A stretch of 64,000 bases of DNA, from NCBI GenBank assembly GCA_963662545.2, contig CAXXLL010000002.1, positions 1,088,001 through 1,152,000 of the forward strand, given 5' to 3'. The position numbers were made by a program, and so were the translations under genes. Shown piece after piece: positions 17,614-37,647 of this stretch. The first letter of the stretch is position 1, and each line of letters opens with the position of its first letter. The notes under the pieces are model-generated. The model saw nothing but the letters and a program-made list of their open reading frames with translations, searched no databases and was not told the origin of the DNA. The DNA is from Gammaproteobacteria bacterium (GTDB lineage: Bacteria > Pseudomonadota > Gammaproteobacteria > Ga0077536).

Positions 17614-18576
17614 CTAATTCCCGTCAATTTCGCCCAGGAAGCGCAGGATCTGGGCGGTCGTTTCGGTGGGTTTTTCCTCCTGGAGCCAGTGACCGGCGCC
17701 CTCGATGATTTCGACGAACCGCAGGTCGTCGAAGTCTTTCGGAAACGTCTCGCGCCAATCGGGATCGTAGAGCAGGACGTCGTCTTCCGCGCCCGCGACG
17801 AAGGCCGCGGGTTGTTTAAAACGCGCGCCCTCTAGTTCGGGTGTTATCTCGCTGTTGGCCGGGATGTTCCGGTAGTAGTTGCATGGTCCGCGAAAACCGC
17901 TCTCGCGATAGGTCTCGAGGTAATAATCGAAATCTTCCTGAGTCAGCCAGCCCGGCAGCTTGCCGGGCTCGGGCAGCACCTCGAGCAGGCCGCTCCCGCG
18001 CGGATGCTCCATCTGCCCGATCCAGCTTCCAGGCGGTGAATCGGCGGACAGGCCGTAGTAAAGAACGCGAAGGCTGCGTGCCAGGTCTTTTTCGAGCTCG
18101 GCCTCGACCACGCCCGGTTCCATGAAATACCGCCAGTACCAGAACTTGTCTTCCATCCCGGGCGGATCAACCCCATCGGGCGACAATCTCCAGAACGGCA
18201 CGCCCAGACCCATCACGGCCCGGCAAGATGATTCATGCAAAAGGGCCATATGCCAGGCGACGACGCATCCCCAATCGTGGCCGACGACGATGAATTCGTC
18301 GTAACCGAGTACCGGCGCGATGCCCGCCGCATCGGCCGCGAGGTCGCGGATGTTGTAGTCACTGACGTCCGGCGGCTTGCTGCTGCCGCCGTATCCGCGC
18401 TGGTCGGGCACGGCGAGGCGATACCCGGCGGCGACGATGGGATCGATCTGATGCCGCCACATGTACCAGCACTGCGGCCAACCGTGCAGCAGAATGACCA
18501 GCGGGCCGTCGCCTTCGACGACCGTGCGTAGGCGGACGCCGTTCGTCTCGATCATCTGGAAATTGCGATCGATCAT
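17614..18576 (-). CDS. Epoxide hydrolase-type alpha/beta hydrolase
   Basis: LHGWP, PDQRGYG.S, GHDWG nucleophile, NYYR, GAGHW. Confidence 0.92.
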   Translation of the reverse strand: MIDRNFQMIETNGVRLRTVVEGDGPLVILLHGWPQCWYMWRHQIDPIVAAGYRLAVPDQRGYGGSSKPPDVSDYNIRDLAADAAGIAPVLGYDEFIVVGHDWGCVVAWHMALLHESSCRAVMGLGVPFWRLSPDGVDPPGMEDKFWYWRYFMEPGVVEAELEKDLARSLRVLYYGLSADSPPGSWIGQMEHPRGSGLLEVLPEPGKLPGWLTQEDFDYYLETYRESGFRGPCNYYRNIPANSEITPELEGARFKQPAAFVAGAEDDVLLYDPDWRETFPKDFDDLRFVEIIEGAGHWLQEEKPTETTAQILRFLGEIDGN

Positions 18577-18678
18577 CGTGTTGAGCCCTTGGTGACACTT
18601 CGCTCGTGCGCTTTGGATATCGAATGTAGCGGGGGAACGGCGTCATTCCAAGGCTTGTAGTCTATTTTAGTGGCTTAA

Positions 18679-18840
18679 GGAATCTCTGAGTAAGTCATGG
18701 CACACGTGCCTTGCGCCTGAAATCGTGCAGCTCGGCGTTACGAAGCTTGCCAATAGTCCCCGCTATTGCCTGCGATTCGTGCCTTGATCTGCACGATTTC
18801 ATGCACCATTCACATGCACCATGACTTATTCAGAGGTTCC
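18679..18840. mobile_element. MITE family A copy 1 (162 bp, IS5-subgroup-like)
   Basis: TIRs GGAAtCTCTGAgTAAGTC and GACTTATTCAGAGGTTCC; near-identical to 37648-37809 and 47019-47180. Confidence 0.85.
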
Positions 18841-18880
18841 CCAATTTGCAATCGACGGCGCGAGTGGTTGAACTGGCGGC

Positions 18881-20023
18881 ATGACGCGGGAGACGATCAC
18901 CTTGGGGATGCCGATCTCGCTGAGCGGTCGCTATGCAATGCTCGGCCGACAGGTGCTGGCGGGCTTGCAATGCTACGTGCGGGCCGTCAACGCCGCGGGC
19001 GGAATCTACCTTTCGGGCTCGAAGCGCAGCTTGCCGGTCGCGCTCATCGCACATGACGACGAGGGCCGAGAGAAAAAGGCCCGGCATCTGGTCGAACGCC
19101 TGATCAATGAAGACGCTATCGACGTCTTGTTGGGGCCCTACGGCAGCGGCCTCACTTTCGCCGCGGCCGAGGCGGCGGATGCGGCCGGCATGGTTTTGTT
19201 CAATCACAGCGGCTCGGCCGATTCCATTTTCGCGCGGCAATCGCAGTGGATGGTCGGGATCATCAGCCCCGCGTCGCGGTACTTGTGCAGCGTGCTCGAT
19301 GCGCTGCGCGCGCGTGATCCCGCCGCGCGAACGATCGCGATCGTCAGCGCGGAGACGGGGTTTGCCGGCGAGGTCGCGCAAGGCGCGGTCGACTGGATCA
19401 ACAAGCAGGGCCTGGAGTTAAGCCTGCACCAGCGCTACCCCTCGGGGCTCGAGGACTTTCGCGATCACGTCGGCGTACTCAAGGAGGAACCACCCGATTG
19501 GTTACTGGGAGTCGGTCGCATAGAAGACGACGTTCGGTTCGCGCACGAACTCTGCGAAATCCGCCCTGAAGTCAAGGCTACCGCTCTCGTCGTCGCCGCC
19601 ATCGATCACTTCAGCCACGCACTCGGCGATGCTAGCGACGGGTTTCTCGCGCCTTCGCAATGGGAGCCCCAGGTACGTTATGCGGTGGACTGCGGCCCGC
19701 TGGCCAGCGAGTTCCTCGAGCGCTACCGCCAGGCATCCGCCTTGCCGCTTGACTACCCGGCCGCCCAGGCTTACGCCGGCGGCGTAATCGTTCAGCGCTG
19801 TATAGAAACCGCCGGATCGCTCGAACAGAAAGCCCTGCGCGATGCCGCACGCGGTCTGCGCTGCACGAGTTTCTACGGTCCCTTCGCCATCGACGGCGAA
19901 AGCGGACGCCAGACGGCGCATCCGATGCTCACGACGCAGTGGCAGGCAGGCGGTAAGAAGATCGTGTGGCCGCCGCCGGTGGCGGAGGCGACGATCGCTT
20001 ATCCCGGTCCTTTTCGGCAGTGA
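18881..20023 (+). CDS. Branched-chain amino acid-type ABC substrate-binding protein (LivJ-like), orphan
   Basis: SLSGRYA, VNAAGGI, LLGPYGSG, QWQ.G...IVWP. No signal peptide visible. Confidence 0.85.
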   Translation: MTRETITLGMPISLSGRYAMLGRQVLAGLQCYVRAVNAAGGIYLSGSKRSLPVALIAHDDEGREKKARHLVERLINEDAIDVLLGPYGSGLTFAAAEAADAAGMVLFNHSGSADSIFARQSQWMVGIISPASRYLCSVLDALRARDPAARTIAIVSAETGFAGEVAQGAVDWINKQGLELSLHQRYPSGLEDFRDHVGVLKEEPPDWLLGVGRIEDDVRFAHELCEIRPEVKATALVVAAIDHFSHALGDASDGFLAPSQWEPQVRYAVDCGPLASEFLERYRQASALPLDYPAAQAYAGGVIVQRCIETAGSLEQKALRDAARGLRCTSFYGPFAIDGESGRQTAHPMLTTQWQAGGKKIVWPPPVAEATIAYPGPFRQ

Positions 20024-20108
20024 GGCGACGCCCACCGCACCGTGCGGGCGTCCATCACGGTGGGGGATCCGCGCGGTTTGCTATAGTGAAATCGACGCTA
20101 CCGTTCAC

Positions 20109-20271
20109 CTAGTGTGCTGTCCCGTGAAAAAGTTGCGTAAGTCGCGCCGGATTTATTGTCGCTGGCAAGGCGCAACGACGCCGTGTAGCGGGCTCTACAC
20201 AAGGAGGAGCGCGGCTGGTGGCAACTAAAGACCAGCGAATTATGAAAGTTTTTCACGGGACAGGACACTAG
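20109..20271. mobile_element. MITE family B copy 1 (IS630-like ends)
   Basis: CTAGTGTGCTGTCCCGTGAAAAA ... TTTTTCACGGGACAGGACACTAG, with CTAG/TA at both ends; other copies at 35133 and 59668. Confidence 0.85.
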
Positions 20272-20280
20272 GAGAGATCC

Positions 20281-20712
20281 ATGAAACTCGACGCCGCCGT
20301 GGTGACCCTGCTCATCGCGGTTCATCATGCCATCGCTTACATTCACGGCGGCGCCCATACCGATCTCGCCATCGTCATGTCGGTATTTCAGAACGCGTTC
20401 ATCTATTTCGTGATCCTCCTGGTACCGCTGGCGGGCGCCGTTCTTACCTGGATGAGCAGGCCCAGAATCGGCCTGTGGGCCGTGATCATCGGCATGGCGG
20501 GGGCCCTCATCTTTGGCGTCACCCATCACTACATGCTCGTATCCCCGGACCATATTGCTCACCTGCCGGCGGCAACGCCATACGTCCACGACACTTTCAT
20601 CTGGACGGCGGGCGCCATGGCGATGGTGGAAGGCGCGTGCGCCATGCTGGCTGCATATTTTCTCGGGCGTCGTTATCGCGACGCGACCGCCGCCTGGCCG
20701 ACGGGAGATTAG
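20281..20712 (+). CDS. Small His-containing 4-TM membrane protein
   Basis: Four hydrophobic segments, HHAIAYIHGGAH and HHY...SPDHI; AGGAG RBS overlapping the MITE end. Confidence 0.7.
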   Translation: MKLDAAVVTLLIAVHHAIAYIHGGAHTDLAIVMSVFQNAFIYFVILLVPLAGAVLTWMSRPRIGLWAVIIGMAGALIFGVTHHYMLVSPDHIAHLPAATPYVHDTFIWTAGAMAMVEGACAMLAAYFLGRRYRDATAAWPTGD

Positions 20713-20821
20713 AGGTAAAAACTTGGACTCGTTCTTACAGATTGGCATCTTGGATACGACCTGACCTGATAAGTACCGTAGCATAAACACAGCACTCCGC
20801 TGTCGGGCTTTACGAGATTAG

Positions 20822-20894
20822 GGTCCGCTATACCGCCGTGAGCAGCCACGCCATGCTGCACTGCACCAGTTCGTAGTCGACCCTGAACGGACAT
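20822..20894. repeat. Cassette-boundary repeat R0 (partial)
   Basis: GGTCCGCTATACCGCCGTGAGCAGCC, then TGCTGCACTGC, then TCGACCCTGAACGGACAT: same order of motifs as R1-R3. Confidence 0.6.
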
Positions 20895-20942
20895 CGACCC
20901 TCGACCTTCAACGGATTCGCTTCGCGGTAAGAACCAGCTTAA

Positions 20943-21467
20943 CTAACTCACGGGCATATCCGGTCTAGGACTTGTTCCAGCGAATATCGATTCGCCTGGA
21001 GGCGCGTCAAGAAGCAATTCCACTTCCTTTTGGAAATTAGCGCTAAACCACGCTTTTCTCTGTTTCCACCAAACTCTTCCGCTGGGCGTATTGAGTACTC
21101 CCGGGACCATTACCCGGTAAGTATCTTCCATGTCATCTGGGTAGTTTCTCTGCCGAATGTCGGCAAACGCTTGTTCTATAGCTTGAAGCCAAATGAGTGT
21201 CGCCAGATCAAATCGATATCGTTCTACCGGCGTGAAATTCTCGAAACGGTCGAGGTCCGCAAAGCCGTTGAGGATGATCTCAGCGATCTCTGGATCATTC
21301 GCTAAGACTGTAATAGCTGCTGCATGATCGTGGGCGGTTGCTCGTGCGTTCGCTCTGCGCGTTTCAACTGTGTGCTTTTTGATCTGGAAACCGACGTACA
21401 GCAGCGAAAAAATGACGCCAACAGCGCTAATAATCTCGGCCACTCCACTGATAGCATCCCAATTCAC
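20943..21467 (-). CDS. Hypothetical protein with N-terminal TM helix (MNWDA...FQI family)
   Basis: 174-aa ORF, lower GC than neighbours, NWDAISGVAEII...SLLYVGFQI and WW..RKAWF...F. Confidence 0.75.
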   Translation of the reverse strand: MNWDAISGVAEIISAVGVIFSLLYVGFQIKKHTVETRRANARATAHDHAAAITVLANDPEIAEIILNGFADLDRFENFTPVERYRFDLATLIWLQAIEQAFADIRQRNYPDDMEDTYRVMVPGVLNTPSGRVWWKQRKAWFSANFQKEVELLLDAPPGESIFAGTSPRPDMPVS

Positions 21468-21523
21468 CTTTGCCTCTCCCGCTGAATAAACGATGAATCA
21501 GGATAGCGAATTCCCTCATGTGG

Positions 21524-21657
21524 GACGACCATTGCTGACCGACTCCCGCCGTGTTCTCTCAACTCGATGCTTAACGCAACTCGACGGCCGCTTATGAGCG
21601 CATTGCAGACGTAACCTAGAAAGGTGCTGCACTGCCGCGAGGGGGCCGCTGACGACC
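21524..21657. repeat. Cassette-boundary repeat R1 (interrupted by IS1182; continues 23343-23358)
   Basis: AACGCAACTCGACGGCCGCTTATGAGCGCATTGCAGACGTAACCTAGAAAGGTGCTGCACTGCCGCGA..GGCCGCTGACG is closely matched at 24823-24904 and more loosely at 25557-25637. Confidence 0.85.
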
Positions 21658-23342
21658 CAGAGTGTGTGAAAACTCGGAATGAAGAGGAATCACGTCGAGA
21701 ACTCCTCGTCAGACGCAACGCGGCGCGGTTACGACGGCCGCGCTCGCGGTCCAATGCGATCGGTTAGTTAATGGAACATTCCTTAGAACGGCCCCAGAAG
21801 CCGGCAGTGAAGCCGTGGATCAGGGAGTTTTCGAGGCCACAGAGGGTCTCATGCCGTCATCGCTTCGATGAGCGTAGCGACACCCAGTAGATTCATCACG
21901 CGTTTCATGTTGTAAGCGAGCACGTGCAGACTCATTTCCGTACCAACGTGTTTCAGCGTGCGCATCTGGAAGTGGGTCGAACCCATCCAGGATTTGATCG
22001 TGCCAAATGGATGCTCGACCGTCTCTCGGCGGACACGCATAGGGTCAGGTTCACGATCCAATCGCGCCTGCACCGCTTCAACAACCGCTTCATGTTCCCA
22101 ACGGCTGACGCGCCGGTATCGACCCGTTGTGCATTTAGATTTGATCGGGCAGCGGGGACACGCCGAACTCCAGTAGCGCCGGATCTGCTTGCCTTTCTCC
22201 ACTCGGGTGAACCGGTAAATCAGTCGCTCACCGGCCGGGCATTCATACGCATCCTCTTCGGGTTGGTAAATGAAGTCGCGCTTGCCAAACAAGCCCTTCG
22301 CCTGGTTACCCGAGGTCTGCGGTTTCGGCAGATAGGTCGTGATGCCGGCTTTAGCGCACGCCAAGATCTCTTCGCCACTGAAGTACCCGCGATCCGCAAC
22401 GACGGTCAACTCCTTCTTATCCAGCGCCTCTTTGGCTTTCTCCGACATGTTCGACAGTTGCGCCCGGTCATGACCTACGTTCGTCACTTCATGTGCCACA
22501 ATCAGATGACTCTTCGTGTCGACCGCCGTCTGCACGTTGTACCCCACCATGCCGCTGCCACGGCCGCTCGTCGCCATCGAGCGCGCGTCCGGGTCCGTCA
22601 GTGAGACCTGATGGTCCGGCGTCTCCTCGAGCCGTACCTCGAGCTTTTTTAGGCGGCCTATCTCTTCCTTCAGTACCTCGATCTTGTCCTTCAAACGCTG
22701 CGACTTGTCACCTGACACCGCACGCTCCTGGCGGTCGGCACTTGCAATTTCCGCCAGGTACCGCTCAACGCTCTCGTCAATCTGCTGCAACCGACGTTTC
22801 AGCTTCGCCTTCGTGAAGTTCCGGTCACGGTTGTTTACCGCTTTGAACTTGCTGCCATCTATCGCCACGAAGGCTTCCGAAAACAGCTGCAGCTTACGGC
22901 ACAGCATCACGAACTCCCGGCATACCAGACGAATGGCGTCACCGTTATCTTTGCGGAAATCGGCAATGGTCTTGAAATCAGGCGCCAGACGACCCGTCAG
23001 CCACATCAGTTCCACGTTCCGCTGCGCCTCCCGTTCCAGGCGACGGCTCGATTGAACCCGGTTCAGGTAACCGTAGATATAGAGCTTCAGCATCGTCGCC
23101 GGGTGATACCCCGGTCGACCCGTCTCATGCGCATCGGTTCTGAAACTCAGACCTGACAGATCCAACTCATCGACGAACACATCGATGACCCGCACCGCAC
23201 TCTCCTCAGCGACATAATCGTCCAGACACTCGGGAAACAGCGTTGTTTGGCGGCGGTCCGCGCCTTCAATGAACCCGCTCATCAACGACTCCCCAGGACC
23301 GAAAGAGTGATCTTATCTGATGCAGAGTTTTCACACACTCTG
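21658..23342 (-). mobile_element. IS1182-family insertion sequence, apparently intact
   Basis: Perfect 18-bp TIRs CAGAGTGTGTGAAAACTC / GAGTTTTCACACACTCTG and a 4-bp TSD GACC (21654-21657, 23343-23346). Confidence 0.93.
21849..23282 (-). CDS. IS1182-family DDE transposase
   Basis: GRPGYHP..MLKLYIYGY, SSRRLE, PDFKTIADFR, AIDGSK, SLTDPDAR, ADRGY, TVEHPFGTIK. Confidence 0.95.
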   Translation of the reverse strand: MSGFIEGADRRQTTLFPECLDDYVAEESAVRVIDVFVDELDLSGLSFRTDAHETGRPGYHPATMLKLYIYGYLNRVQSSRRLEREAQRNVELMWLTGRLAPDFKTIADFRKDNGDAIRLVCREFVMLCRKLQLFSEAFVAIDGSKFKAVNNRDRNFTKAKLKRRLQQIDESVERYLAEIASADRQERAVSGDKSQRLKDKIEVLKEEIGRLKKLEVRLEETPDHQVSLTDPDARSMATSGRGSGMVGYNVQTAVDTKSHLIVAHEVTNVGHDRAQLSNMSEKAKEALDKKELTVVADRGYFSGEEILACAKAGITTYLPKPQTSGNQAKGLFGKRDFIYQPEEDAYECPAGERLIYRFTRVEKGKQIRRYWSSACPRCPIKSKCTTGRYRRVSRWEHEAVVEAVQARLDREPDPMRVRRETVEHPFGTIKSWMGSTHFQMRTLKHVGTEMSLHVLAYNMKRVMNLLGVATLIEAMTA

Positions 23343-23372
23343 GACCCATAGCCGACATCGCGATTCTCCTTA

Positions 23373-24719
23373 CTATGCGTCCCGCACCCCGAGAAGCTCC
23401 TTGGCCGCCCGCATGCCGGACCAATGGGCTTGGCCAACGGTGCTGTTGACCAAATAATCGCCAGCGAATGTGACCCGCTCCAACGGTCCAAGGTCGCGAA
23501 ATCGTTTCAACGCTTTGAGATAACCTTTGGGTCTTCGCGCTATCGCCAGGTCATTGCGCTGGATGTATTGGTCAACAATGATCGCATCGCGAATCTGTGG
23601 GAATGCCCTCGTCACTTCTTTCCAACCGTCTTCTAGCACAGCGTCCGACGACCACGCCTGGGTCTCCTTGCTGCCCCAGTTCTTCCACTGGGCGTAGACG
23701 AGCGTTCGCCCTTCACCACCAGGGCTGAACGCGACATCGGCAACTACCCTGTACCCGTCTACCGTCGGCAGCAAAACCCGCTCGGGCAGATCGTCCCGGA
23801 GCGGTTCGTCCAACAGATACCACGCGTTATGGTGGCCCGAATACGAGACACCCTCAAAGAACTGACGCCGTTCTTCGTCAATGCCGGGGAATAAGTTTAG
23901 AACCAGAGTCCCGGGCACTGCGATGACCGCGGCGTCGGCGGTGATCGTTTCGACCGCGCCGTGCCGGTTCACATCAACTTCAATATGACTTTCGAGCACC
24001 CGCAGTTGTTGGGCGATGACATGGAAGTTCAACTGCGTGCCTTCGTCGCGAACGAAATGTTCGCCGAGCGAGCGGGTCAGCTGGCCGACGCCGCGCTCCT
24101 CGAACGCCCACCAATGTTCGGCACCCCAGGTAAGGCGGCTCGCGACCAACCACAGCAGCCAGGCGAGCGAATAATCATCCTCTCCATAACCGCAAAAAAG
24201 CGACAGGCAGGGATCAAGGAAATAATCGACGAACTTTGGCGAATGTGCCCGAAAGTACTCGCACGCGTTCTGATCGTCGAATTTCGCTGCGGTCACCGGA
24301 TCCCGCGGGTCGCACGCAGCCATCTGTTTGAGCATTCGCGGCACAACTTTACCCAAAGCCAGTTTCTCTTTGACGGGGATGACATCGGATTTGATCGCTT
24401 CGAGAATATCGAAGTCGTCGAAGGATACGATACCTTTGTCCTTCAGTAGAACGTGGTAGCGTGGTCGGCTTTCAAGAAATTCTGTGCGCGGCAACGTGTC
24501 GTAGATGCCGAGTGCGGTCGCTAATTCGACCAGGTTTTCTTCCGAGCCGATGAATCCCTCAGCGCCTCGCTGCAGATACATCCCGTTCCATTTGAATGCG
24601 CGACACCGACCCCCAGCATCTTCGTTCTTCTCCAGGATCACGACTTCATGATCGCTCTCCCGCAATGTCCAAGCGGCCGACATGCCAGCCATGCCGCCAC
24701 CGATGACAATGATTTTCAT
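23373..24719 (-). CDS. FAD-dependent amine oxidase / protoporphyrinogen-oxidase-like protein
   Basis: IGGGMAGMSAA, LEK...AGGR, GAE, FAGDY...STVGQAHWSG..AA. Confidence 0.85.
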   Translation of the reverse strand: MKIIVIGGGMAGMSAAWTLRESDHEVVILEKNEDAGGRCRAFKWNGMYLQRGAEGFIGSEENLVELATALGIYDTLPRTEFLESRPRYHVLLKDKGIVSFDDFDILEAIKSDVIPVKEKLALGKVVPRMLKQMAACDPRDPVTAAKFDDQNACEYFRAHSPKFVDYFLDPCLSLFCGYGEDDYSLAWLLWLVASRLTWGAEHWWAFEERGVGQLTRSLGEHFVRDEGTQLNFHVIAQQLRVLESHIEVDVNRHGAVETITADAAVIAVPGTLVLNLFPGIDEERRQFFEGVSYSGHHNAWYLLDEPLRDDLPERVLLPTVDGYRVVADVAFSPGGEGRTLVYAQWKNWGSKETQAWSSDAVLEDGWKEVTRAFPQIRDAIIVDQYIQRNDLAIARRPKGYLKALKRFRDLGPLERVTFAGDYLVNSTVGQAHWSGMRAAKELLGVRDA

Positions 24720-24773
24720 AGTCGCCCCATCGGTTCGTTTAAACGCCGGAGACTATACATCAGTAAGGCGGGC

Positions 24774-24921
24774 GGTGGCCGCTCCTGGCCGACTGCCGTC
24801 GTCATTGGTTAACACGTCAGTGAACGCAACTCCACGACCGCTATGGAGCGCATTGCAGACCGAATCTAGAACAGTGCTGCACTGCCGCGATGAGGCGGCT
24901 GACGGCGGGGAAAGCGGACCT
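24774..24921. repeat. Cassette-boundary repeat R2
   Basis: GGCCGCTCCTGGCCGACTGCCG ... GACCGCTATGGAGCGCATTGCAGAC ... GTGCTGCACTGCCGCGA ... GGCTGACGGCGGGGAAAGCGGACC. Confidence 0.85.
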
Positions 24922-24995
24922 ACGGCTGGCAATCATCGCTGACAGTAACCCGAGCCGCCGGCATGCCTCGCGCTCGGCGCATGTGGTACTCGCCG

Positions 24996-25370
24996 TCACG
25001 CCTTCTCTGTGTGTCGGACGTTGTACATGAAGTACAAACTAATCAGCGTGCCTGTCACGAGAAAGATCACTACAGCTTCGATCCACCAAGGAAAAGTAAC
25101 AAGCGATATTTCGTCGTAAACAGATTGCTCACGGGCACGGAGCAGCACCCACGCTTTGACATGTACAAACGTAGTTACGCCAAACATTGAGGCAGAAAGC
25201 AGATAAACGAACGATATCATCATGCATTGGTACCGTGACAATGCTCTGCCGACGAAATATGAAACTGTGAGATAAGCAAAAGTTAGAGAAAGCCATACTC
25301 CAAGATATGTCGCCGCGACATCGGCGATGTCGGTCAATGCACCAATAACTCCAATTCCTACTTCAGTCAT
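24996..25370 (-). CDS. Small 3-TM hypothetical membrane protein
   Basis: 124 aa, FAYL..SYFVG..LSRYQ, C-terminal SLYFMYNVRH; low GC. Confidence 0.75.
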   Translation of the reverse strand: MTEVGIGVIGALTDIADVAATYLGVWLSLTFAYLTVSYFVGRALSRYQCMMISFVYLLSASMFGVTTFVHVKAWVLLRAREQSVYDEISLVTFPWWIEAVVIFLVTGTLISLYFMYNVRHTEKA

Positions 25371-25505
25371 CTCTTCATTCCCCCATAGTTAAACCAACAG
25401 GAGTAAGGATATAATTGATGTCAGGGCCAGTGGGTGGCACGCTCTTATGTCTCAAATCCTCGTTTCCGTAAAACCCAAATGAATACAAAGCTGTTCCAGA
25501 AGGGC

Positions 25506-25653
25506 GACCGGCCGTTTCTGGCCGACTATCGCCGTGCTCCCTCCACTCAATTCTTGAAGCAATCCGACGACTGCTTACGAGGGTACTGCAGACGTAATCT
25601 CTAGCTGTGCTGCACTGCGGCGATTCGGCCGCTGACGACCCACTACGGACCGT
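25506..25653. repeat. Cassette-boundary repeat R3
   Basis: GGCCGTTTCTGGCCGACTATCGCCGTG ... GACTGCTTACGAGGGTACTGCAGACGT ... GTGCTGCACTGCGGCGA ... GGCCGCTGACGACCCACTACGGACC. Confidence 0.85.
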
Positions 25654-25780
25654 CGCAGTGGCTAATATGCGTTCAGCTATGCTCAATTAATGGTCAATTT
25701 CCAGACCGCTATCCTATTTATAGAAATTGGCGGCGACCCATAATTGCTACTCACCGGATGTTTGACGTGAAGTTGGGGGC

Positions 25781-25806
25781 AAAGGGGCGTTAATGCCGCC
25801 TATACT
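25781..25806 (+). other. IS91/ISCR oriIS-like terminus (putative)
   Basis: AAAGGGGCGTTAATGCCGCCTATACT resembles ISCR-type ori ends (..GG.GTT.A....CCTATAC). Confidence 0.45.
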
Positions 25807-25919
25807 TTCCGTATAAATCGTATTTGGCTTTGCATTTATGGAAGGCGGTGGATACCAAACTGATTAAGTAAGCTATTTATATCGACGGTAAAATAAGTCT
25901 CATCTGAGCCCATATAAAC

Positions 25920-27362
25920 TTATGTATCGAATACTTCCAGATCAGCAAAAGTAATTTCCTCACCTTCTTCGTACATTAGAAGGTCCCCGGCGATAATGTG
26001 GGCGGCGCCTTTTAAGCATTCTAGTAAAGAGGGGTGTGGAAATATTGATTCCAGCAGGTAGGTATACGGCAACTCTCGCTCAATAATGATCGAGGCGGCA
26101 CTGACAATACCGTCAGCTTCAGGGCCCACCACGCGCACACCGAGAATTCGGTCATCACCTTTGGGCCCAACAATCAACTTGACGAAACCGGCCGCCGGTT
26201 GAATGGCGTGGGCGCGATGATTGCGCGCATAGGGGTATTTACCTATCCGCACCTCGCCGTACTTTTCCCGGGCATAGGTCTCATTAACCCCAGCGCCTGC
26301 CAGCATGGGCACGGTAAAAATGATATAGGGGATGTGGTTCATGCTCTGTGGATAATCTTGGTTGAGGATATGTGCAGCTGCGCAACGCCCCTCAGCTTCG
26401 GCAACATGAACCAGTGCCAAGTCGCTAGGTATATTTCGATTGCCGATGTCGCCTACCGCATAGATGTGCGCTACCGAGGAGCGAGTATCCAGGCCCGTGG
26501 GTATATAGCCTCGCTGGTCCAATTCGACACCGCTAGCTTCAATATTCATGGTGCCCGAGCAGGGCATGCGGCCTATGGCTAGTAATACCGTTTCGGTTTC
26601 AATCTCACCGCTGGATAATGTGGTTTTTACGCTGGTGTCCAGCAGTTCCATGCTCTGATAGCGGCTGCAGGCTATCACCTTGATTCCGCGTTTTTCAAAA
26701 GCGTTAGCCACAAAGTGGCTGAGATCTGGGTCTTCATTTGCCATGATGACCTGCTGGGTATCGACCAGGTGAACCTGGGTGCCCACGGCGTTGAACATAC
26801 TGGCGAATTCACAACCGATGATGCCGGCTCCTAGAATCAGCATCGAGCTTGGTGTGGTGCTTAGCTGGTTAACCTCATCAGAGGTAAGTACGCGCCGGCC
26901 ATCGATTTCCATGCCAGGCAGCACGCGGGGGCAGGTGCCGGTGGCGATGATAATGTTGTCAGCGCTGTAGCGGGTCCCATTGACTTCGACTGTATGGGGG
27001 TCAATAAAGCGTCCGCGCCCCTTGATGACTTCAATGCCCAAGCGCTGCAAGCGCTTTTCAAGCATTTTGGTGAGGTTTGCCGCCGATTCGGCAACCCCCT
27101 GTTGCAGTGTTTCGATTTTCAGTGGCTTGAGTTCGCCGAAGACGTGCTTGCGTAATCGAGTGTGCAAGTACTCACGGCTAATTTCAAAGCCTGCCTTGGA
27201 GCGAAAAGCTCCATCGATGCCGTAGCCCATCAGTGGGCCCTCATTAATGATGATGGCCTTCCTGCCGGCCAGTGCGAGCTTGCTTGCGGCGCTGATTCCG
27301 CCGGGGCCGCCGCCTATTACTAGTACATCGCAATGAATTGCCGTCATGGTTTTTTGTTCCAT
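25920..27362 (-). CDS. Class I pyridine nucleotide-disulfide oxidoreductase-like flavoprotein lacking the redox-active Cys pair
   Basis: IGGGPGG, IATG..P, GAGIIGCE, IYAVGD and HPSLLE are present, but GYGIDGAFRSK replaces GGTCLNVGCIPSK. Lower GC than host genes. Confidence 0.88.
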   Translation of the reverse strand: MEQKTMTAIHCDVLVIGGGPGGISAASKLALAGRKAIIINEGPLMGYGIDGAFRSKAGFEISREYLHTRLRKHVFGELKPLKIETLQQGVAESAANLTKMLEKRLQRLGIEVIKGRGRFIDPHTVEVNGTRYSADNIIIATGTCPRVLPGMEIDGRRVLTSDEVNQLSTTPSSMLILGAGIIGCEFASMFNAVGTQVHLVDTQQVIMANEDPDLSHFVANAFEKRGIKVIACSRYQSMELLDTSVKTTLSSGEIETETVLLAIGRMPCSGTMNIEASGVELDQRGYIPTGLDTRSSVAHIYAVGDIGNRNIPSDLALVHVAEAEGRCAAAHILNQDYPQSMNHIPYIIFTVPMLAGAGVNETYAREKYGEVRIGKYPYARNHRAHAIQPAAGFVKLIVGPKGDDRILGVRVVGPEADGIVSAASIIIERELPYTYLLESIFPHPSLLECLKGAAHIIAGDLLMYEEGEEITFADLEVFDT

Positions 27363-27372
27363 CTTGGCGGAA

Positions 27373-28005
27373 GAGAATAAGCCGAATAAACACCCTTTTC
27401 CGCAATTCCACCGAGTATCGTCAGGTCATCAAACCGTCGTCAACCTGCGATTCGACGCGGTGTTGGCCTGAATTGAGCCCCTGAGCCGGCAGTAATTCTG
27501 TACATCAGGGCGATTTTTCGACGGTTCCGAGCGTCGGCACGACAGCGACTCTGCCGCGTCGCTGAGTGTCGCAGCCGCTGGTCTTACGCGCGTGGTTGCG
27601 CGTGTATCAGGCGAACCAGCGGGCCTGGGGCGGCGCCCGACACGGTGGCAAACGCGAGGCAGCTGTTGAAGTGTTTTTGCGGTCGAGGTGGGTGAGGATC
27701 TTCTCGATCACCACAGGGTCTTCGATGCAGGCGATGATCCTGACGTGGCCGCCGCAGCTCTTGCAGGTCTCGATGTCGATGTTGAAGACCCGCTTCAGGC
27801 GCTGTGCCCAGGTCGCCGCTCTTGCGCATCCCTGCGCCCGCGGCATTAGTGCATCCATGCACGTCATGGCGGCCCGGCGTTCGGCGGGCGTTAGGTCTTC
27901 AGTCGCCGCCGCGTTGGCTTTGTTGCCCTTGCCCCGTTTGGCCGGCGTCACCCGCGCACGATGCGCGCTGTTGGGGGCGAACACGCCGTGGAAGCGGGTG
28001 AGGTT
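27373..28005 (-). mobile_element. Truncated IS91/ISCR-like element: transposase 3' fragment (27607-28005) plus oriIS-like end
   Basis: NLTRFHGVFAPNS, ERRAAMT..WAQRLKRVFNIDIETC..CGG..RIIACIEDP.VI.KIL.HL, RAPP. Minus-strand GGAAAAGGGTGTTTATTCGGCTTATTCTC ends near 27373. Confidence 0.88.
27815..27862. repeat. 48-bp double-hairpin micro-insertion with 3-bp TSD (GTC), in frame in the IS91 transposase
   Basis: GCCGCTCTTGCGCATCCCTGCGCCCGCGGCATTAGTGCATCCATGCAC is flanked by GTC at 27812-27814 and 27863-27865, adding 17 codons inside MT-WAQRL. Confidence 0.85.
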
Positions 28006-28029
28006 GGCAGGTTTCTTTTTTGGCTCACC

Positions 28030-28103
28030 ATGTCCGCAGTTGGCCGGTTGCTGCCGAAATCGTCACTGCGAAGTTTGACTGGAATGCCTTCATTAGCGGA
28101 CAT
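28030..28103. repeat. GTCCGC..GCGGAC-type palindromic units adjoining the IS91 remnant
   Basis: ATGTCCGCAGTTGGCCGGTTGCTGCC and TGACTGGAATGCCTTCATTAGCGGACAT, the same unit type as in R0-R3. Confidence 0.6.
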
Positions 28104-28280
28104 CAATTCACGTGTTGGAACTGTCCGAGCAAGTTTGAACTCCGCTTTTAGTCTGTCAGATCGAGTCTGAATTTTAAAAATCAGGGGGATCGCGGTGATG
28201 GAGGTCCGCAGGCTTTCGAGCGGTATTCAAGCTTCGCGCGCAAGCGGGCGAACCTGAATACCCAATTTCGGATTGCGCCG

Positions 28281-28886
28281 CTAAATCCGCTCGGCGCGTA
28301 CTATCCACAGGGGATCGGCATTCGCCGGTGAACGATCGAGCGCCTCAGGCATGTCGAAACTGCCCGCGCGACGAACGTACTCGGCGACGAGGCGCATGCG
28401 CTCGTCCGTGCCGGATGTGTGAAACGCGCGAATGGCCTTCGTGTGGAAACAGCGATGCGACATGCTCACGACGACCTGCCCGCCGGGGCGCAGGACGCGG
28501 GCTATGTCGGCAAAAACATCCAGGGGACGGATTAGGTATTGGATCGACACCGCGATAAACACGAAGTCGAAGCGCGCAGCATCCCATGGCAGTGAGGGAT
28601 CGTGATTTAAATCGTGGACGACTTGTTCTCCCAGCCGTGGATTGCCGTCCAGTTCCGCCGCGTTCATGCCGAGGCCCGCGACGTGTCCGAGTTCCGGTTC
28701 TTCGGGCAGATGCGAAACCCAGGACGACATGAGATCGAGCACGTCGGCACCGCTGAATAAGATCTCGCTATAAAAAGAAGTGAGCGCAGCGATGGTGGCG
28801 TCATCGATGTGCGTTACGAAGCGGGGCTGGATGTAAAACAGTGCATCGGGCGTTTCGTCGAGTCGCTCGAACATCGTCGGCGACAT
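28281..28886 (-). CDS. Class I SAM-dependent methyltransferase (type 11)
   Basis: D..FY..PRFVTHID, VLDLMSSWVSHLP, GLGMNA.EL..N, VSIQYL.RP. Confidence 0.9.
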   Translation of the reverse strand: MSPTMFERLDETPDALFYIQPRFVTHIDDATIAALTSFYSEILFSGADVLDLMSSWVSHLPEEPELGHVAGLGMNAAELDGNPRLGEQVVHDLNHDPSLPWDAARFDFVFIAVSIQYLIRPLDVFADIARVLRPGGQVVVSMSHRCFHTKAIRAFHTSGTDERMRLVAEYVRRAGSFDMPEALDRSPANADPLWIVRAERI

Positions 28887-29139
28887 TGGCGTTCCACCTC
28901 GGCGCGTCAATGAATTCGTGCATCGCAACCGCGCGGTCACGGCGGATATCGCACTGCATCCAACGCGAGCTGCGCGGGGACTTCATTGCCAGATCTATTG
29001 CGCCAAGATCGATCGGTTGAACTATCGGGCCCGCAGCCAGTAGCGCGGTTGTGAAAGTTGTTGACGTGGACTCTACGGTCGCTGTTCACTCGATAGCTGA
29101 TGTGGACATCATTTATTGAAATTACCGTTCTGTATGATG

Positions 29140-29721
29140 TTACGGTAGGCACGGCTTTTGCGGCCCGCTCTTCTGCTGTTCGCTCTCGATTTCTTGTACA
29201 AGGGTTGCATAGGCGCCCGCCGAGATGAGTCTACGAGCTTCTTCGACGAATGATCGGCAATCACTAAGCCTTTGCGGGGTCCTGTGGACACGGGGCGTTT
29301 GCTCGAGAAAATTCGCCATCTCAATTTCAATGAGTGCTTGAAGCACCTCCACTTGGATCGTTATTAGGCGCCCGTGGCGTTCATCCCTTACACGAATCGG
29401 GCGTTTGTTGATGTTCGTTTGAAACGTTCTGCGGTCGCAAACGCAGAACAGGTAAGCGAGATCTTCAGAGGTGGAGCCGATTACGCGGCGAACCTTCGAT
29501 CTCTGCTCCAATTCCGCCGAAGCGACACGGAAGCTTCGCGTACCGTAAATACTATGGAAAAGGCCGGCGACGCACGTCTCCGTGGGATTTCCCCACGACG
29601 CAAGAATGTCGTGCGTCTGAATCAAATGACGCACCAATACGTCGCCGGAGTGCGGATTCGTATCTGCACCGAACTCCTTAAGAAGCTCTAGATACTCTTC
29701 ACTGATCATCGAACGTGCCAT
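29140..29721 (-). CDS. DUF6817-like HD-domain-related protein
   Basis: HSG..L..HL..T..IL..WG......AGLFHSIYGT, IG..SE.LAYLFC, EMANFLEQ. Confidence 0.75.
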   Translation of the reverse strand: MARSMISEEYLELLKEFGADTNPHSGDVLVRHLIQTHDILASWGNPTETCVAGLFHSIYGTRSFRVASAELEQRSKVRRVIGSTSEDLAYLFCVCDRRTFQTNINKRPIRVRDERHGRLITIQVEVLQALIEIEMANFLEQTPRVHRTPQRLSDCRSFVEEARRLISAGAYATLVQEIESEQQKSGPQKPCLP

Positions 29722-29802
29722 GGCGACGACGACTCTGATGCCTCACCGAAAGTATTGACCGAGGGCGTAACGCTGACCTACTCGCCAAGAACGGCTCCGA
29801 CG

Positions 29803-29931
29803 GTACTGTCAAGTTAACTGATTTCATGGAGATTTCACTGACCGTGACGCCACCTAAGTTGCTGATTCGTGGTCCTGGCTAGAATAAATTTTGCTTCGAA
29901 AATGAGCAAATTCTAGTTAACTTGACAGTAC
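29803..29931. mobile_element. MITE-like element D (129 bp)
   Basis: Perfect 17-bp TIR GTACTGTCAAGTTAACT / AGTTAACTTGACAGTAC with an AT-rich non-coding interior. Confidence 0.7.
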
Positions 29932-29960
29932 GCTTACTCATGATCGGGATCAATTATCCT

Positions 29961-31004
29961 TCAGGTTGCGAGCAGGTCGCGGAGGTTGTCGTCGATCGCC
30001 TGCTTGTCTTTTTCGTCCATGCAGAACATCGTGAAATGGGCCCACAGCGAATCGATCAGCCGGTACTCACAATCCGGAATCAAGTCGGCTTCCGCCTTGC
30101 AGTCCGCCGGCGGAAAAAACATGTCGTTGCCGAATGGCATGACAAAGGTCCGGGCCTTGATGCGCCCGAGGGCGGCGGCGAGGTCCCCGTCGGTATGCAG
30201 GCTTACGTCGCCGTGTCGCCACTTCCATGCCATGCAGATGAGGTTGTTCGGATCCATGGGCGCGAAATAGGCCTCCCAGAACCCCGTGACGAATTCGTCG
30301 AGGGTCGAGAAATCGAGGCCGCGCCACACTTCTTGTCTGTAGAACTCGGGGCAAAGCCCCATCACCGACCAGATCTCGGCGTGCCGGCGCAAGCCGAGGT
30401 GGACCGCGTTGGGTTCGGTATAGAACCCGCCGTTCCAGGCCGGGTCGGATTTGATCGTGTTCTCGTGGGCGCGCACGAACAGGTAGTCGTGCGGCGTTGT
30501 CTTGGCGGTGCCGGCGAAGGGCGCGGCCCGCTTTACCATGTCGGGGTAGCGCACCGCCCATTCGTAGGTCTGTTCCGCACCCATCGACCATCCGAGTACC
30601 AGTTGTAACTCGGAGATCCCGAACACCTCGGTTACCAGGCGATGCTGGGCCTGGACGTCGTCGCCGATCATGACGTTCGGAAACGCACCCATGTTGTGCG
30701 GCGGTGGCGTGTTGCTCGGTGAGGACGAAAAGCCGTTGCCGAACTGGCCCGGCAGGATAATGAAATACTTCGAAGGATCCAGCGCACGACCTTCGCCGAT
30801 GAAGATCTCCATCGACTTCGACGTGCCGGACCACATATGCGGAAAGAGGATCGCGTTGTCCTTGGCTTCATTCAGTGTGCCGTGGGTGCGATAGGCGAGC
30901 CGGGCGTGCTGGAGGGTTTCACCCTGAATCAGGGAGAGGTCTCCGAGTTCGAGGTATTTATGCGGACCCAGCGTGTCTTCCGAGTAATAGGCATTGTCGA
31001 TCAT
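29961..31004 (-). CDS. Homoserine O-acetyltransferase-like alpha/beta hydrolase
   Basis: LAY.THGTLN..KDNAIL, FGNGFSSSPSN, GWSMG, DMFFPP, WAH. Confidence 0.88.
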   Translation of the reverse strand: MIDNAYYSEDTLGPHKYLELGDLSLIQGETLQHARLAYRTHGTLNEAKDNAILFPHMWSGTSKSMEIFIGEGRALDPSKYFIILPGQFGNGFSSSPSNTPPPHNMGAFPNVMIGDDVQAQHRLVTEVFGISELQLVLGWSMGAEQTYEWAVRYPDMVKRAAPFAGTAKTTPHDYLFVRAHENTIKSDPAWNGGFYTEPNAVHLGLRRHAEIWSVMGLCPEFYRQEVWRGLDFSTLDEFVTGFWEAYFAPMDPNNLICMAWKWRHGDVSLHTDGDLAAALGRIKARTFVMPFGNDMFFPPADCKAEADLIPDCEYRLIDSLWAHFTMFCMDEKDKQAIDDNLRDLLAT

Positions 31005-35297: not shown

Positions 35298-35310
35298 GAT
35301 GCATTTCACA

Positions 35311-37619: not shown

Positions 37620-37647
37620 CTCATGCGCTCAGTAATGCAATATTTAA

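What the first reader, a model, noticed from the sequence alone, without database searches (positions are those of the whole stretch)
20822..28227. Integron-like gene-cassette array delimited by non-attC tripartite palindromic repeats and linked to IS91/ISCR ends
Seen: three unrelated minus-strand genes (25370-24996, 24719-23373, 21467-20943) are each bounded by copies of a ~140-bp repeat (R3 25506-25653, R2 24774-24921, R1 21524-21657+23343-23358, partial R0 20822-20894). Each full repeat has three ~26-bp imperfect palindromes of type G(T/G)CCGCT..N..AGCGGAC, conserved spacers and a TGCTGCACTGC motif. Repeats begin about 15-75 bp after a stop codon and end about 55-135 bp before the next start, as cassette junctions do. 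The same palindromic units recur at 28030-28227 next to an IS91/ISCR transposase remnant. There are no RYYYAAC/GTTRRRY attC ends and no intI. Inference: a gene-capture platform whose sites are processed by a tyrosine recombinase (inverted arms plus short spacer) or by the rolling-circle HUH transposase acting on ssDNA hairpins.
Basis: partly seen in the sequence, partly recalled or inferred. Interest (0 to 1): 0.88.

Follow-up and report, generated by a model that had tools for sequence, protein, structure and literature searches.

The report
Mosaic repeats bounding gene modules
The three repeats are real, but they belong to a genus-specific family of over 100 non-coding repeats that separate small gene modules in variable, transposon-rich islands and act as recombination and insertion hotspots, not as integron sites.

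Summary
The three ~134-nt repeats are real (72-77% identical), and R1 is split by a 1687-bp IS1182-family element. The partial copy R0 and the units at 28030-28227 are not statistically detectable.

- **Family size and layout:** the genome holds 118-127 copies. Nearly all lie in 11 IS-laden islands (6.75% of the genome), and 112 of 118 are intergenic. They are co-oriented within islands and separate mostly one- or two-gene modules whose genes face either way.
- **Not attC:** they have no RYYYAAC/GTTRRRY ends and no conserved hairpin. The same genome has two integron integrases with classical 122-nt attC arrays that fold as expected.
- **Variable block:** the sister genome G002 lacks window 20438-28270.
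- **Module shuffling:** the same modules recur between different repeat copies in other arrays and genomes. Junctions fall at three or more positions within the repeat, and the repeats are mosaic. This favours general recombination between repeats over a single-site recombinase.
- **Insertion target:** IS1182-type elements insert at the 3' end, and integrase+IS91 elements insert at a 5' CTTGGCCG module (6 of 6). Classic IS91 remnants are enriched in the arrays.

The integron-like architecture is partly supported. A dedicated capture enzyme is not shown.

The parts
20438..28270 (.). Strain-variable block that contains the whole finding. It is absent from the sister genome G002, and G001 has other DNA at this place.
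   Evidence: the reverse complement of G002:C50 matches window 19702-20437 and then 28271-28880, only about 20 nt apart; weak similarity on the right side may begin at about 28243. G001 has about 6 kb of different content and no repeat here.
20822..20894 (+). R0, a degenerate remnant of the repeat's 3' part (TGCTGCACTGC ... GTCGACCC).
   Evidence: (D10). The HMM gives only E = 1.6 at 20876-20912, which is not significant.
20943..21467 (-). Module gene 1: 174 aa with an N-terminal membrane helix and no Pfam or NCBIfam family. It belongs to a large paralogous family that is also carried in the genome's classical integron cassettes.
   Evidence: 0 families; 29 tblastn matches genome-wide, and 17 members lie in repeat-bounded units; relatives lie in the attC array at C2:988-993k.
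21526..21657 (+). R1, a repeat copy cut near its 3' end (GACGACCCA|) by the IS. The short remainder lies at 23344-23358.
21658..23343 (-). IS1182-family insertion sequence, 1687 bp, with a 478-aa transposase at 21849-23285(-).
   Evidence: 24-nt inverted ends. (DUF772, DDE_Tnp_1, NF033551 at 466.5 bits); 14 full copies at 98.9-100% identity; its end abuts 14 of 107 3'-complete repeat copies.
23373..24719 (-). Module gene 2: 448-aa flavin-containing amine oxidase-like oxidoreductase.
   Evidence: PF01593, 98.9 bits.
24776..24909 (+). R2, a full repeat copy.
   Evidence: E = 2.5e-41.
24996..25370 (-). Module gene 3: 124-aa membrane protein with no family. The module 24911-25522 recurs in G001 (88.5% identical) in another context.
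25509..25642 (+). R3, a full repeat copy. From 25587 onwards it is shared with a second locus, C3:930693.
25920..27362 (-). 480-aa pyridine nucleotide-disulphide oxidoreductase. Together with R3 and the IS91 remnant it is duplicated at C3:930.7-933.1k.
27372..27397 (-). GGGTGTTTATTCGGCTTATTC motif downstream of the transposase remnant, possibly an oriIS-like end.
   Evidence: Read. It resembles GTGGTTTATGCTATCTATACAC downstream of the full copy. The oriIS consensus is recalled, not tested.
27607..28002 (-). Remnant (C-terminal 131 aa) of a classic IS91-family (Y2 HUH) transposase.
   Evidence: tblastn gives 27 such loci, and the remnant is 65% identical to the full 500-aa copy; that full copy has Y2_Tnp and Zn_Tnp_IS91; the remnant alone has no Pfam hit.
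28013..28106 (.). Weak resemblance to the repeat's 5' module (ATGTCCGCAGTTGGCCGG...).
   Evidence: E = 0.25 on each strand, not significant. Read by eye.

Best explanation
The repeat (called R here) is a genus-specific, non-coding, mosaic interspersed repeat. It is not a recombinase site of the integron type and not an IS91 end.

R copies fill nearly every intergenic gap of about 11 flexible, IS-laden islands. Within an island they all point the same way, and they separate one- or two-gene modules of unrelated accessory genes.

R works as portable homology and as a landing pad:
- Recombination between R copies excises, duplicates and re-inserts modules. Excision between direct copies would give a circle carrying one R, and re-entry at any other R would keep all copies co-oriented. 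This reshuffles modules between arrays and genomes and makes the R copies themselves mosaic.
- Several mobile elements insert preferentially into R. IS1182-type elements insert at ...GACGACCCA|. Integrase+IS91 (Y2 HUH) elements insert next to the CTTG of the 5' module. An IS5-like element inserts at the CTAG of the core.

The window holds a small island of this kind, about 7.8 kb.

Shown: the distribution, co-orientation, module sharing, multiple junction positions, mosaicism and insertion specificity. Inferred: that general (homology-dependent) recombination and circle re-integration build the arrays.
For: **Family and distribution**
- nhmmer finds 118 hits and 127 with a 104-copy HMM.
- 112 of 118 hits are intergenic, although the crude gene call covers 85% of the genome.
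- Arrays of three or more copies cover 6.75% of the genome.

**Co-orientation**
- Arrays are 39/39, 17/17, 9/9, 9/9, 4/4 and three arrays of 3/3. One group is 11 plus a lone opposite copy 20 kb away. Two more are mixed: C3:1449925-1462040 (++-) and C3:2543610-2566753 (++++------).
- In relatives, G001:C14 has 11 copies all '-' and G002:C67 has 3 all '+'.
- Orientation does not follow the GC-skew replichore.

**Modules**
- There are 98 inter-repeat intervals with a median of 2188 nt.
- Of 74 IS-poor intervals, 35 hold one gene and 15 hold two.
- Gene direction is 106 opposite to R and 101 the same.
- Functions are unrelated: of the 25 unit proteins scanned, 17 matched Pfam families spanning unrelated functions and 8 matched none.

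**Variation between genomes**
- G002 lacks window 20438-28270.
- The module 24911-25522 is in G001.
- The 627-aa PQQ-dehydrogenase module lies in two G000 arrays and in G001, and has a repeat-less paralogous locus.
- Contig L046, 96-99% identical to G000, joins C2:607k-like and C3:899k-like DNA through one R.

**Junctions at three or more positions in R**
- At the 3' end.
- In the mid-core at TGCAGAC.
- After the 5' module TTGGCCGAC.GC.

**R does not travel with a flank**
- Pairs that share only one flank have core identity 0.74-0.84, against a background median of 0.76 (n = 7495). One pair reaches 0.91.
- Some of the listed pairs share an IS rather than a module.
- Mosaic R copies appear.

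**Insertion targets**
- for IS1182; for the integrase+IS91 elements, 6 of 6; for the IS5-like element.
Against: - Homologous recombination alone does not explain how a gene first comes to be flanked by R copies. It also does not explain why R sits in almost every gap of the islands yet almost nowhere else.
- Three independent junctions lie exactly at the 3' end GACGACCC(A)|. This is the same place where three types of IS1182-like element insert, which could mark a specific cleavage site.
- Two or three junctions lie at the end of the 5' module, close to the insertion point of the integrase+IS91 elements.
- Only about ten junctions could be read cleanly, because the arrays are riddled with IS copies.
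- No circle or excision product was seen. The read data were assembled contigs too short to tell.
Confidence: 0.55

Rival explanations
1. R is the recombination site of a dedicated site-specific system, a second and non-integron cassette platform. A tyrosine recombinase would cut at the 5' module or at the 3' end and insert or excise modules. The recombinase could be the integrase carried by the integrase+IS91 elements or one not yet identified. The 5' module reads as inverted arms around TGGCCG in the consensus.
For: - Co-oriented arrays of one- or two-gene modules.
- Recurrent junctions at the 3' end and at the 5' module.
- Integrase-bearing elements sit in or at the ends of arrays, always in the 5' module and always in one orientation, 6 of 6.
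- The consensus GtCCGctctTGGCCGagAGCCG is nearly palindromic.
Against: - Junctions also lie in the mid-core.
- The arms are not conserved: a GTCCGC-like start occurs in 22 of 68 long copies, and there is no covariation.
- That integrase was not found in G001 (89% complete) or G002 (95% complete), which both have arrays.
- A small recombinase fragment beside the G001 module has no relative in G000.
- Gene orientation is random.
Confidence: 0.15
2. The arrays are built by rolling-circle (IS91/ISCR-type) one-ended transposition. The Y2 HUH transposase would start at an oriIS, run into neighbouring genes and deliver them next to a CTTG-type tetranucleotide. R offers that tetranucleotide in its 5' module. 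R would therefore be the preferred target, and the modules would be the cargo.
For: - The IS91 family inserts with oriIS next to 5'-CTTG or 5'-GTTC and co-mobilises adjacent DNA in 1-14% of events (PMC13181058; passages read).
- The integrase+IS91 elements abut CTTG, CCTG, GTTG or TCTG of the 5' module.
- Classic IS91 remnants occur at 13 of 27 loci within arrays, p = 5e-9.
- In the window, a transposase remnant with an oriIS-like motif directly precedes the 480-aa gene, and that whole unit is duplicated at C3:930.7-933.1k.
Against: - Most modules have no IS91 remnant beside them.
- Remnants lie in both orientations relative to R (read, about 7 each way).
- Junctions at the 3' end and in the mid-core are not next to a CTTG-type site.
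- R shows no likeness to the ends of either IS91 type (by eye).
Confidence: 0.15
3. R is itself a small non-autonomous mobile element (MITE-like) that inserted separately into each intergenic gap.
For: - 118 or more copies at 72-94% identity, restricted to one genus.
- Some copies are framed by GTCCGC ... GCGGAC. A shorter variant of about 80 nt has the same frame.
- Solitary copies exist outside the arrays.
Against: - The frame is present in a minority: 22 of 68 starts and 10 of 107 ends by a strict pattern.
- No target duplication was seen.
- Random insertion explains neither the clustering in 6.75% of the genome nor the strict co-orientation, and orientation is not tied to replication direction.
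- No clean empty site for a single R was found in the three solitary loci compared.
Confidence: 0.1
4. R is an unusual attC recognised by one of the genome's two integron integrases.
For: - Array architecture.
- A protein family shared between R units and classical cassettes.
- A few classical attC sites lie inside or beside R arrays.
Against: - R has no RYYYAAC/GTTRRRY ends and no hairpin.
- The classical attC sites of the same genome give -61.8 kcal/mol, 41 pairs and 8 compensatory changes under the same method.
- Both intI genes sit next to classical attC sites and not next to R.
Confidence: 0.01

Closest known systems
Neisseria intergenic mosaic elements (NIMEs: RS repeat units framed by dRS3), with dRS3 acting as an insertion site for mobile elements (recalled, not tested)
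   Same: Non-coding mosaic repeat blocks of 50-150 nt in intergenic gaps. They are lineage-specific, act as substrates for recombination that swaps neighbouring genes, and are preferred insertion sites for mobile elements.
   Different: R is longer, is strictly co-oriented over up to 136 kb, and separates one- or two-gene modules of unrelated genes. No short framing repeat is consistently present. The organism and the sequence are unrelated.
Integron cassette arrays and CALINs (attC sites)
   Same: Co-oriented repeats of about 60-140 nt separate single unrelated genes in variable arrays. The repeats are hit by specialised insertion elements. The same genome carries both kinds of array, and they share a protein family.
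   Different: R has no inverse core sites, no conserved hairpin, no integrase or attI at the array head, random gene direction, several junction positions, and repeats that do not travel with the gene.
REP/BIME and ERIC-type intergenic repeats, which are targets of IS elements such as IS1397 and ISPpu9/10 (recalled)
   Same: Intergenic, non-coding and abundant, and used as specific targets by insertion sequences.
   Different: R is not palindromic and is not dispersed over the chromosome. It is concentrated in islands at roughly one copy per gene or two, all in one orientation.
pdif modules of Acinetobacter plasmids (recalled)
   Same: Small gene modules bounded by recombination-site-like repeats and found in many contexts, with a mechanism not fully shown.
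   Different: pdif sites are 28-bp XerC/D sites in alternating orientation. R is about 85-150 nt, is co-oriented, and has no demonstrated recombinase-binding arms.
ISCR/IS91 accretion regions
   Same: Truncated Y2 transposase genes with oriIS-like ends lie beside captured genes. The insertions are target-specific, next to a CTTG-type tetranucleotide.
   Different: Most modules have no IS91 remnant. R is not an IS91 end, and a tyrosine recombinase gene accompanies the intact elements.

Membership tests
Integron attC site | Inverse core sites RYYYAAC ... GTTRRRY at the two ends | tested here: not met
   Absent from R1-R3 and from the 104-copy consensus. The genome's classical attC sites have CCTAAC ... 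GTTAGG.
Integron attC site | Conserved imperfect hairpin maintained by compensatory changes | tested here: not met
   R gives no consensus fold on 101 copies, no covarying helix, and -8.5 kcal/mol with 0 compensatory pairs on 9 copies. The control with 9 classical attC sites gives -61.8 kcal/mol, 41 pairs and 8 compensatory changes.
Integron attC site | Array headed by intI and attI; cassette genes mostly co-oriented | tested here: not met
   The two intI genes (462.5 and 461.1 bits) lie at C2:996.7k and C3:1527k beside classical attC sites. Genes in R units run 106 opposite to R and 101 the same. IntegronFinder itself was not available.
MITE | Terminal inverted repeats and target-site duplication at defined ends | tested here: not met
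   A GTCCGC-like start occurs in 22 of 68 long copies and a GCGGAC-like end in 10 of 107 (strict patterns). No duplication was seen in the junctions read.
REP/BIME-type repeat | Short palindromic units dispersed over the chromosome in intergenic regions | tested here: not met
   Intergenic: yes, 112 of 118. Palindromic: no. Dispersed: no, arrays cover 6.75% of the genome. A RAYT-type transposase was not searched for.
IS91/ISCR terminus (oriIS or terIS) | Sequence likeness to the ends of an IS91-family element in the same genome | tested here: inconclusive
   No likeness was seen by eye to the ends of the two integrase+IS91 types or of the classic full copy. No formal alignment statistic was computed.
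IS91-family insertion target | Element end abuts a 5'-CTTG or 5'-GTTC type tetranucleotide, with no target duplication | tested here: met
   The integrase-proximal end abuts CTTG (2 copies), CCTG, GTTG and TCTG (2 copies) of the R 5' module in 6 of 6 copies. The rule is taken from PMC13181058 (passages). Which end is the oriIS is inferred.
IS1182 family (the element in R1) | DDE transposase matching the family model, terminal inverted repeats, multiple near-identical copies | tested here: met
   NF033551 at 466.5 bits against a cut-off of 270. 24-nt inverted repeats, 92% complementary. 14 full copies at 98.9-100% identity. An apparent GACCCA duplication is inferred.
pdif (XerC/D) module | 28-bp XerC-spacer-XerD sites in alternating orientation around each module | tested here: not met
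   R copies are 85-150 nt and co-oriented. Xer binding is not testable here.

The most novel reading that the evidence does not exclude
The repeat arrays are a second gene-cassette system that runs beside the classical integron in the same genome. Modules would be cut out and inserted at defined points of the repeat: the 3' end GACGACCCA| and/or the CTTGGCCG 5' module. The enzyme would be one not yet tied to cassette capture, such as a tyrosine recombinase or the Y2 HUH transposase of the integrase+IS91 elements. The mid-repeat junctions would then be later homologous exchanges.
Probability: 0.2. Interest if true: 0.85.

Novelty: new variant of a known kind. Interest (0 to 1): 0.55.

Why it matters
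If the reading holds, a lineage of uncultured bacteria keeps roughly 7% of its genome as co-oriented arrays of single-gene modules stitched together by a mosaic repeat, next to ordinary integrons. That would show that an integron-like architecture (a stockpile of shuffled, unrelated accessory genes) can arise and be maintained without attC hairpins or an integron integrase, simply through portable homology and targeted insertion.

It also gives clear examples of target choice by mobile elements:
- IS1182-family elements insert at one nucleotide position of a repeat.
- IS91-family elements that carry a tyrosine recombinase always insert into the same 5' module.

If a dedicated enzyme is behind it instead, this would be a new gene-capture platform.

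Tried and rejected
- **Rfam:** gathering thresholds on the whole window gave 0 matches.
- **attC reading:** rejected.
- **Replication-strand bias as the cause of co-orientation:** rejected, because both orientations occur within one GC-skew arm of C2.
- **MITE frame GTCCGC...GCGGAC:** I proposed this from a few copies. It does not hold family-wide.
- **BLAST end points at HMM positions 152-162:** these first looked like one crossover point. Fine alignments showed that many were the IS1182 target duplication or HSPs running on through family similarity, so I did not use that count.
- **Shared 'module' C2:710902-712064 = G001 tandem pair:** this is an IS5-like element in the CTAG of the repeat core, not a cassette.
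- **Flank test:** several 'same left flank' pairs are IS1182-like ends in the 5' module. The test is therefore based on few clean pairs.
- **Small tyrosine-recombinase fragment beside the G001 copy of module 3:** it has no relative in G000 (no hit at E 1e-3).
- **Integrase of the IS91 elements:** not found in G001 or G002 with this query at E <= 1e-40. Both genomes are incomplete, so this does not show absence.
- **Empty-site search for three solitary copies:** this gave rearranged or non-syntenic matches and no clean empty site.
- **Sequencing runs:** the stretch is held by 20 listed runs of 8 studies. Contigs of 4 partial holders laid on 18000-30500 were 200-1700 nt long and bridged nothing, so parts without cover mean nothing.
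- **Pattern scans:** 3 contigs in genome contigs and 1 in metagenome contigs.
- **Literature:** two 15-16-nt motifs of the repeat are in no paper of the library. A search on sponge symbiont, integron, cassettes, IS and repeats listed only integron papers (listing only). Searches were seen as listings and abstracts. For PMC13181058 I read only the passages returned by 'find'. Supplements were not opened.
- **Not used:** Structure prediction, fold search, complex prediction and the big protein searches.

Full report
**1. What is in the window**

Three direct copies of a 134-nt repeat lie at 21526-21659, 24776-24909 and 25509-25642. They are 72-77% identical, and no further copy lies in the 64 kb.

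R1 is cut at 21657/23343 by a 1687-bp element with 24-nt inverted ends. Its 478-aa protein is an IS1182-family transposase (DUF772 and DDE_Tnp_1; NF033551 at 466.5 bits against a cut-off of 270).

Between the repeats lie three unrelated minus-strand genes: a 174-aa protein with no family, a 448-aa amine-oxidase-like flavoprotein, and a 124-aa protein with no family. Further right come a 480-aa pyridine nucleotide-disulphide oxidoreductase and, at 27607-28002(-), the C-terminal 131 aa of a classic IS91-type transposase.

The partial R0 and the units at 28013-28106 are not significant with a 104-copy HMM (E = 1.6 and 0.25). Rfam finds nothing in the window.

**2. The repeat is a large family, clustered and co-oriented**

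The window is C2:1088001-1152000 of a 5.58-Mb genome in 3 contigs.
- An HMM of the three copies finds 118 hits at E <= 1e-3. An HMM of 104 copies finds 127.
- With a crude gene call of my own that covers 85% of the genome, 112 of 118 hits are intergenic.
- The hits are not dispersed. Arrays of three or more copies, with 2-kb flanks, cover 6.75% of the genome.
- Within arrays the copies point one way: 39 of 39 in C2:612982-749010, 17 of 17 in C3:887202-930773, 9 of 9 twice, 4 of 4, and 3 of 3 three times. One group of 12 is 11 '+' copies plus a lone '-' copy 20 kb away. Two more arrays are mixed: C3:1449925-1462040 (++-) and C3:2543610-2566753 (++++------).
- Orientation does not follow the replication arm, because both orientations occur in the rising GC-skew half of C2.

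**3. Module content**
- There are 98 intervals between neighbouring co-oriented copies, with a median of 2188 nt.
- Of 74 intervals poor in multi-copy DNA, 35 hold one predicted gene, 15 hold two and 3 hold none.
- Genes point 106 times against the repeat and 101 times with it.
- Twenty-five unit proteins were scanned against Pfam. The hits were rhodanese, Yip1, an MFS transporter, a Na/H exchanger, SLT+LysM, an MscS fragment, two SPFH proteins, two luciferase-like monooxygenases, DUF4124, SnoaL, an adenylate cyclase with AAA domain, an FAD oxidase, a methyltransferase, an alpha/beta hydrolase and an SGL-like protein. Eight had no family.
- One family of 160-190-aa proteins with an N-terminal membrane helix has 17 members in the units, and window gene 1 belongs to it. 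The family also sits in classical integron cassettes of the same genome.

**4. It is not attC**

The genome has two full integron integrases (TIGR02249 at 462.5 and 461.1 bits, cut-off 265) at C2:996.7k and C3:1527k. None lies in the window.

Beside the first integrase lies a textbook array of at least 9 minus-strand cassettes with 122-nt attC sites that end in CCTAAC ... GTTAGG. The second has one such site. Classical attC sites form their own arrays, mostly apart from the R arrays.

Under the same method, 9 classical attC sites fold into a 41-pair hairpin of -61.8 kcal/mol with 8 compensatory pairs. Nine R copies give 13 pairs, -8.5 kcal/mol and no compensatory pair. On 101 copies RNAalifold returns no structure on either strand, and a scan of all column pairs finds no covarying helix. 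R is conserved in sequence, not in structure.

**5. Distribution among genomes**
- R was found in 2 of 2 other genomes of the genus, and in 0 of 38 other relatives searched (22 of the family and 16 of the class), at BLAST sensitivity.
- A core pattern scanned over one genome per species found 3 contigs, and over the metagenome collection 1 contig.
- The relatives also have co-oriented arrays. G001:C14 has 11 copies, all '-'. G002:C67 has 3, all '+'. The G002 array starts about 740 nt after a tRNA-SeC gene.

**6. The block is variable**

In G002, which is 91-95% identical across the flanks, the flanks of the finding are joined. The contig matches window 19702-20437 and then 28271-28880 with about 20 nt between.

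The break lies inside the 143-aa ORF 20281-20712, so a deletion in G002 is as likely as an insertion here. G001 has about 6 kb of other DNA there, without R.

**7. Modules recur in other contexts**
- Window 24911-25522 (gene 3 with its flanks) is 88.5% identical to G001:C14:30118-30729. Homology starts right after R2's 3' end and stops in R3's 5' module.
- A 2.16-kb module with a 627-aa PQQ-type dehydrogenase lies in two G000 arrays (95.8% identical) and in G001. It also has repeat-less paralogues at C3:2729-2741k. The two G000 copies share the module and the right-hand R, but their left-hand R copies are only about 79% alike. That junction lies just after GACGACCC(A).
- A G002 module follows a different R copy than its G000 counterpart, again with the break at the 3' end.
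- Contig L046, 96-99% identical to G000, joins DNA that in G000 lies at C2:607k to DNA at C3:899k through one R. The left break is after the 5' module, and this R is a mosaic of other copies.

**8. Where the junctions lie**

Fine alignments show breaks at three kinds of position:
- At the 3' end (three cases above).
- In the mid-core at TGCAGAC: C2:1620413 against C2:2582263; window R3 at 25587 against C3:930693; and a later mid-core break in C3:909089 against C3:359197.
- Just after the 5' module TTGGCCGAC.GC: C3:929879 against C2:76058, and L046 against C2:606.8k.

In an all-pairs test, R cores next to a shared left or right flank are no more alike (0.74-0.84) than random pairs of the family (median 0.76, n = 7495). 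The exception is the right-hand R of the PQQ module, at 0.91. Several listed pairs turned out to share an IS rather than a module, so the clean sample is about ten junctions.

Several junction positions and mosaic repeats point to general recombination between R copies, not to one cleavage point.

**9. R as a landing pad**
- **IS1182-family element.** It has 14 full copies. Its end abuts 14 of the 107 R copies that reach the 3' end, always at ...GACGACCCA|. By coordinates these are 13 full copies plus one degraded copy, and both orientations occur.
- **Two other IS1182-like end types.** They sit at the same place in 3 + 3 copies. One of them also sits in the 5' module.
- **Integrase+IS91 elements.** These are about 2.5 kb and encode a tyrosine recombinase (Phage_integrase plus SAM_4) followed by a Y2_Tnp/Zn_Tnp_IS91 transposase. 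They have 6 copies of two types. All 6 are in the 5' module, in one orientation, with the integrase-proximal end next to CTTG, CCTG, GTTG or TCTG. This fits the IS91-family rule of insertion next to 5'-CTTG or 5'-GTTC (PMC13181058, passages). Three of the six sit in a shorter variant of the repeat of about 80 nt, with the same 5' module and a different interior.
- **IS5-like element.** It sits in the CTAG of the core.
- **Classic IS91 remnants.** They lie at 13 of 27 loci inside the arrays (binomial p = 5e-9), in both orientations.

**10. How it most likely works**

R is portable homology that marks the seams of flexible islands. Recombination between direct copies would delete a module as a circle carrying one R, and re-entry at any R would add a module and keep all copies co-oriented. 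Double exchanges in the two flanking copies would swap modules between arrays or incoming DNA.

This accounts for the co-orientation, the module sharing, the several junction positions and the mosaic repeats. It does not account for how a gene first acquires R on both sides, nor for the cluster of junctions at the 3' end and the 5' module. Those leave room for an enzyme-driven process (rivals 1 and 2).

The integrase of the IS91 elements is a poor candidate for a general array enzyme, because it was not found in the two sister genomes that have arrays (both are incomplete).

**11. Comparison and novelty**

The nearest known things are mosaic intergenic repeats such as Neisseria NIMEs, REP-type repeats used as IS targets, and pdif modules (all recalled), together with integron or CALIN arrays.

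R differs from each, as listed under Closest known systems and Membership tests. Neither two motifs of the repeat nor a topical search found a description in the paper library.

I file it as a new variant of a known kind: a mosaic intergenic repeat family with an integron-like, co-oriented, module-delimiting layout.

Noticed in passing
G000:C2:982347-997670 (L036) and G000:C3:1524812-1528210 (L037); also C3:1917893-1949539: The genome has two full integron integrases. One has a classical array of at least 9 cassettes with 122-nt attC sites, including BrnT/BrnA-like pairs and the 160-190-aa membrane family. A large attC cluster lies far from any intI.
   Followed up: partly
window 18675-18843, 37644-37812, 47015-47183: A 169-nt repeat family (88-93% identical in the window) with dozens of copies in both sister genomes. 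It is unrelated to the finding's repeat.
   Followed up: no
window 20105-20275, 35133-35299, 59787-59833: A MITE-like element of about 165 nt with 41-nt inverted ends starting CTAGTGTGCTGTCCCG, also with dozens of copies in G001 and G002. A longer element of about 1.17 kb with the same ends sits in the CTAG of a repeat core.
   Followed up: partly
window 21657/23343 and 13 other places in G000: The IS1182-family element inserts at one nucleotide position of the repeat (...GACGACCCA|), in either orientation, with an apparent GACCCA duplication. Two other IS1182-like end types use the same position.
   Followed up: partly
window 25599 joined to 24873: In contigs of two runs from different studies (X17, X18), sequence up to 25599 (R3 left half) continues, after 6 other letters, at 24873 (R2 right half). 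This is a hybrid repeat. It could be another family member, a tandem duplication or a circle junction of module 3. X18 has no cover over 25089-25505, so it cannot be told (table 5c).
   Followed up: no
L056:9692-9997 (G001:C14:29692-29997, minus strand): A 101-aa N-terminal fragment of a small tyrosine recombinase lies directly beside the G001 copy of window module 3, where the repeat's 5' module breaks off. No relative was found in G000.
   Followed up: partly
window 9879-10178 and 14492-14791: Two 300-nt stretches 72% alike, probably paralogous genes.
   Followed up: no
G000:C2:606809-606907 and upstream of three integrase+IS91 copies: A shorter variant of the repeat, about 80 nt. It has the same GTCCG..TTGGCCG 5' module, a different interior (..ATGGTCAAGTG..GATGGCTGCTTTCGGG..) and ends in AAGCGGAC. 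The repeat HMMs did not detect it, so the family is larger than 127 copies.
   Followed up: partly
L054:9953-10048 (G002:C67): A tRNA-SeC gene lies about 740 nt before the first repeat of a G002 array. In G000 the tRNA-like match is at C2:1267.6k, away from any array.
   Followed up: partly
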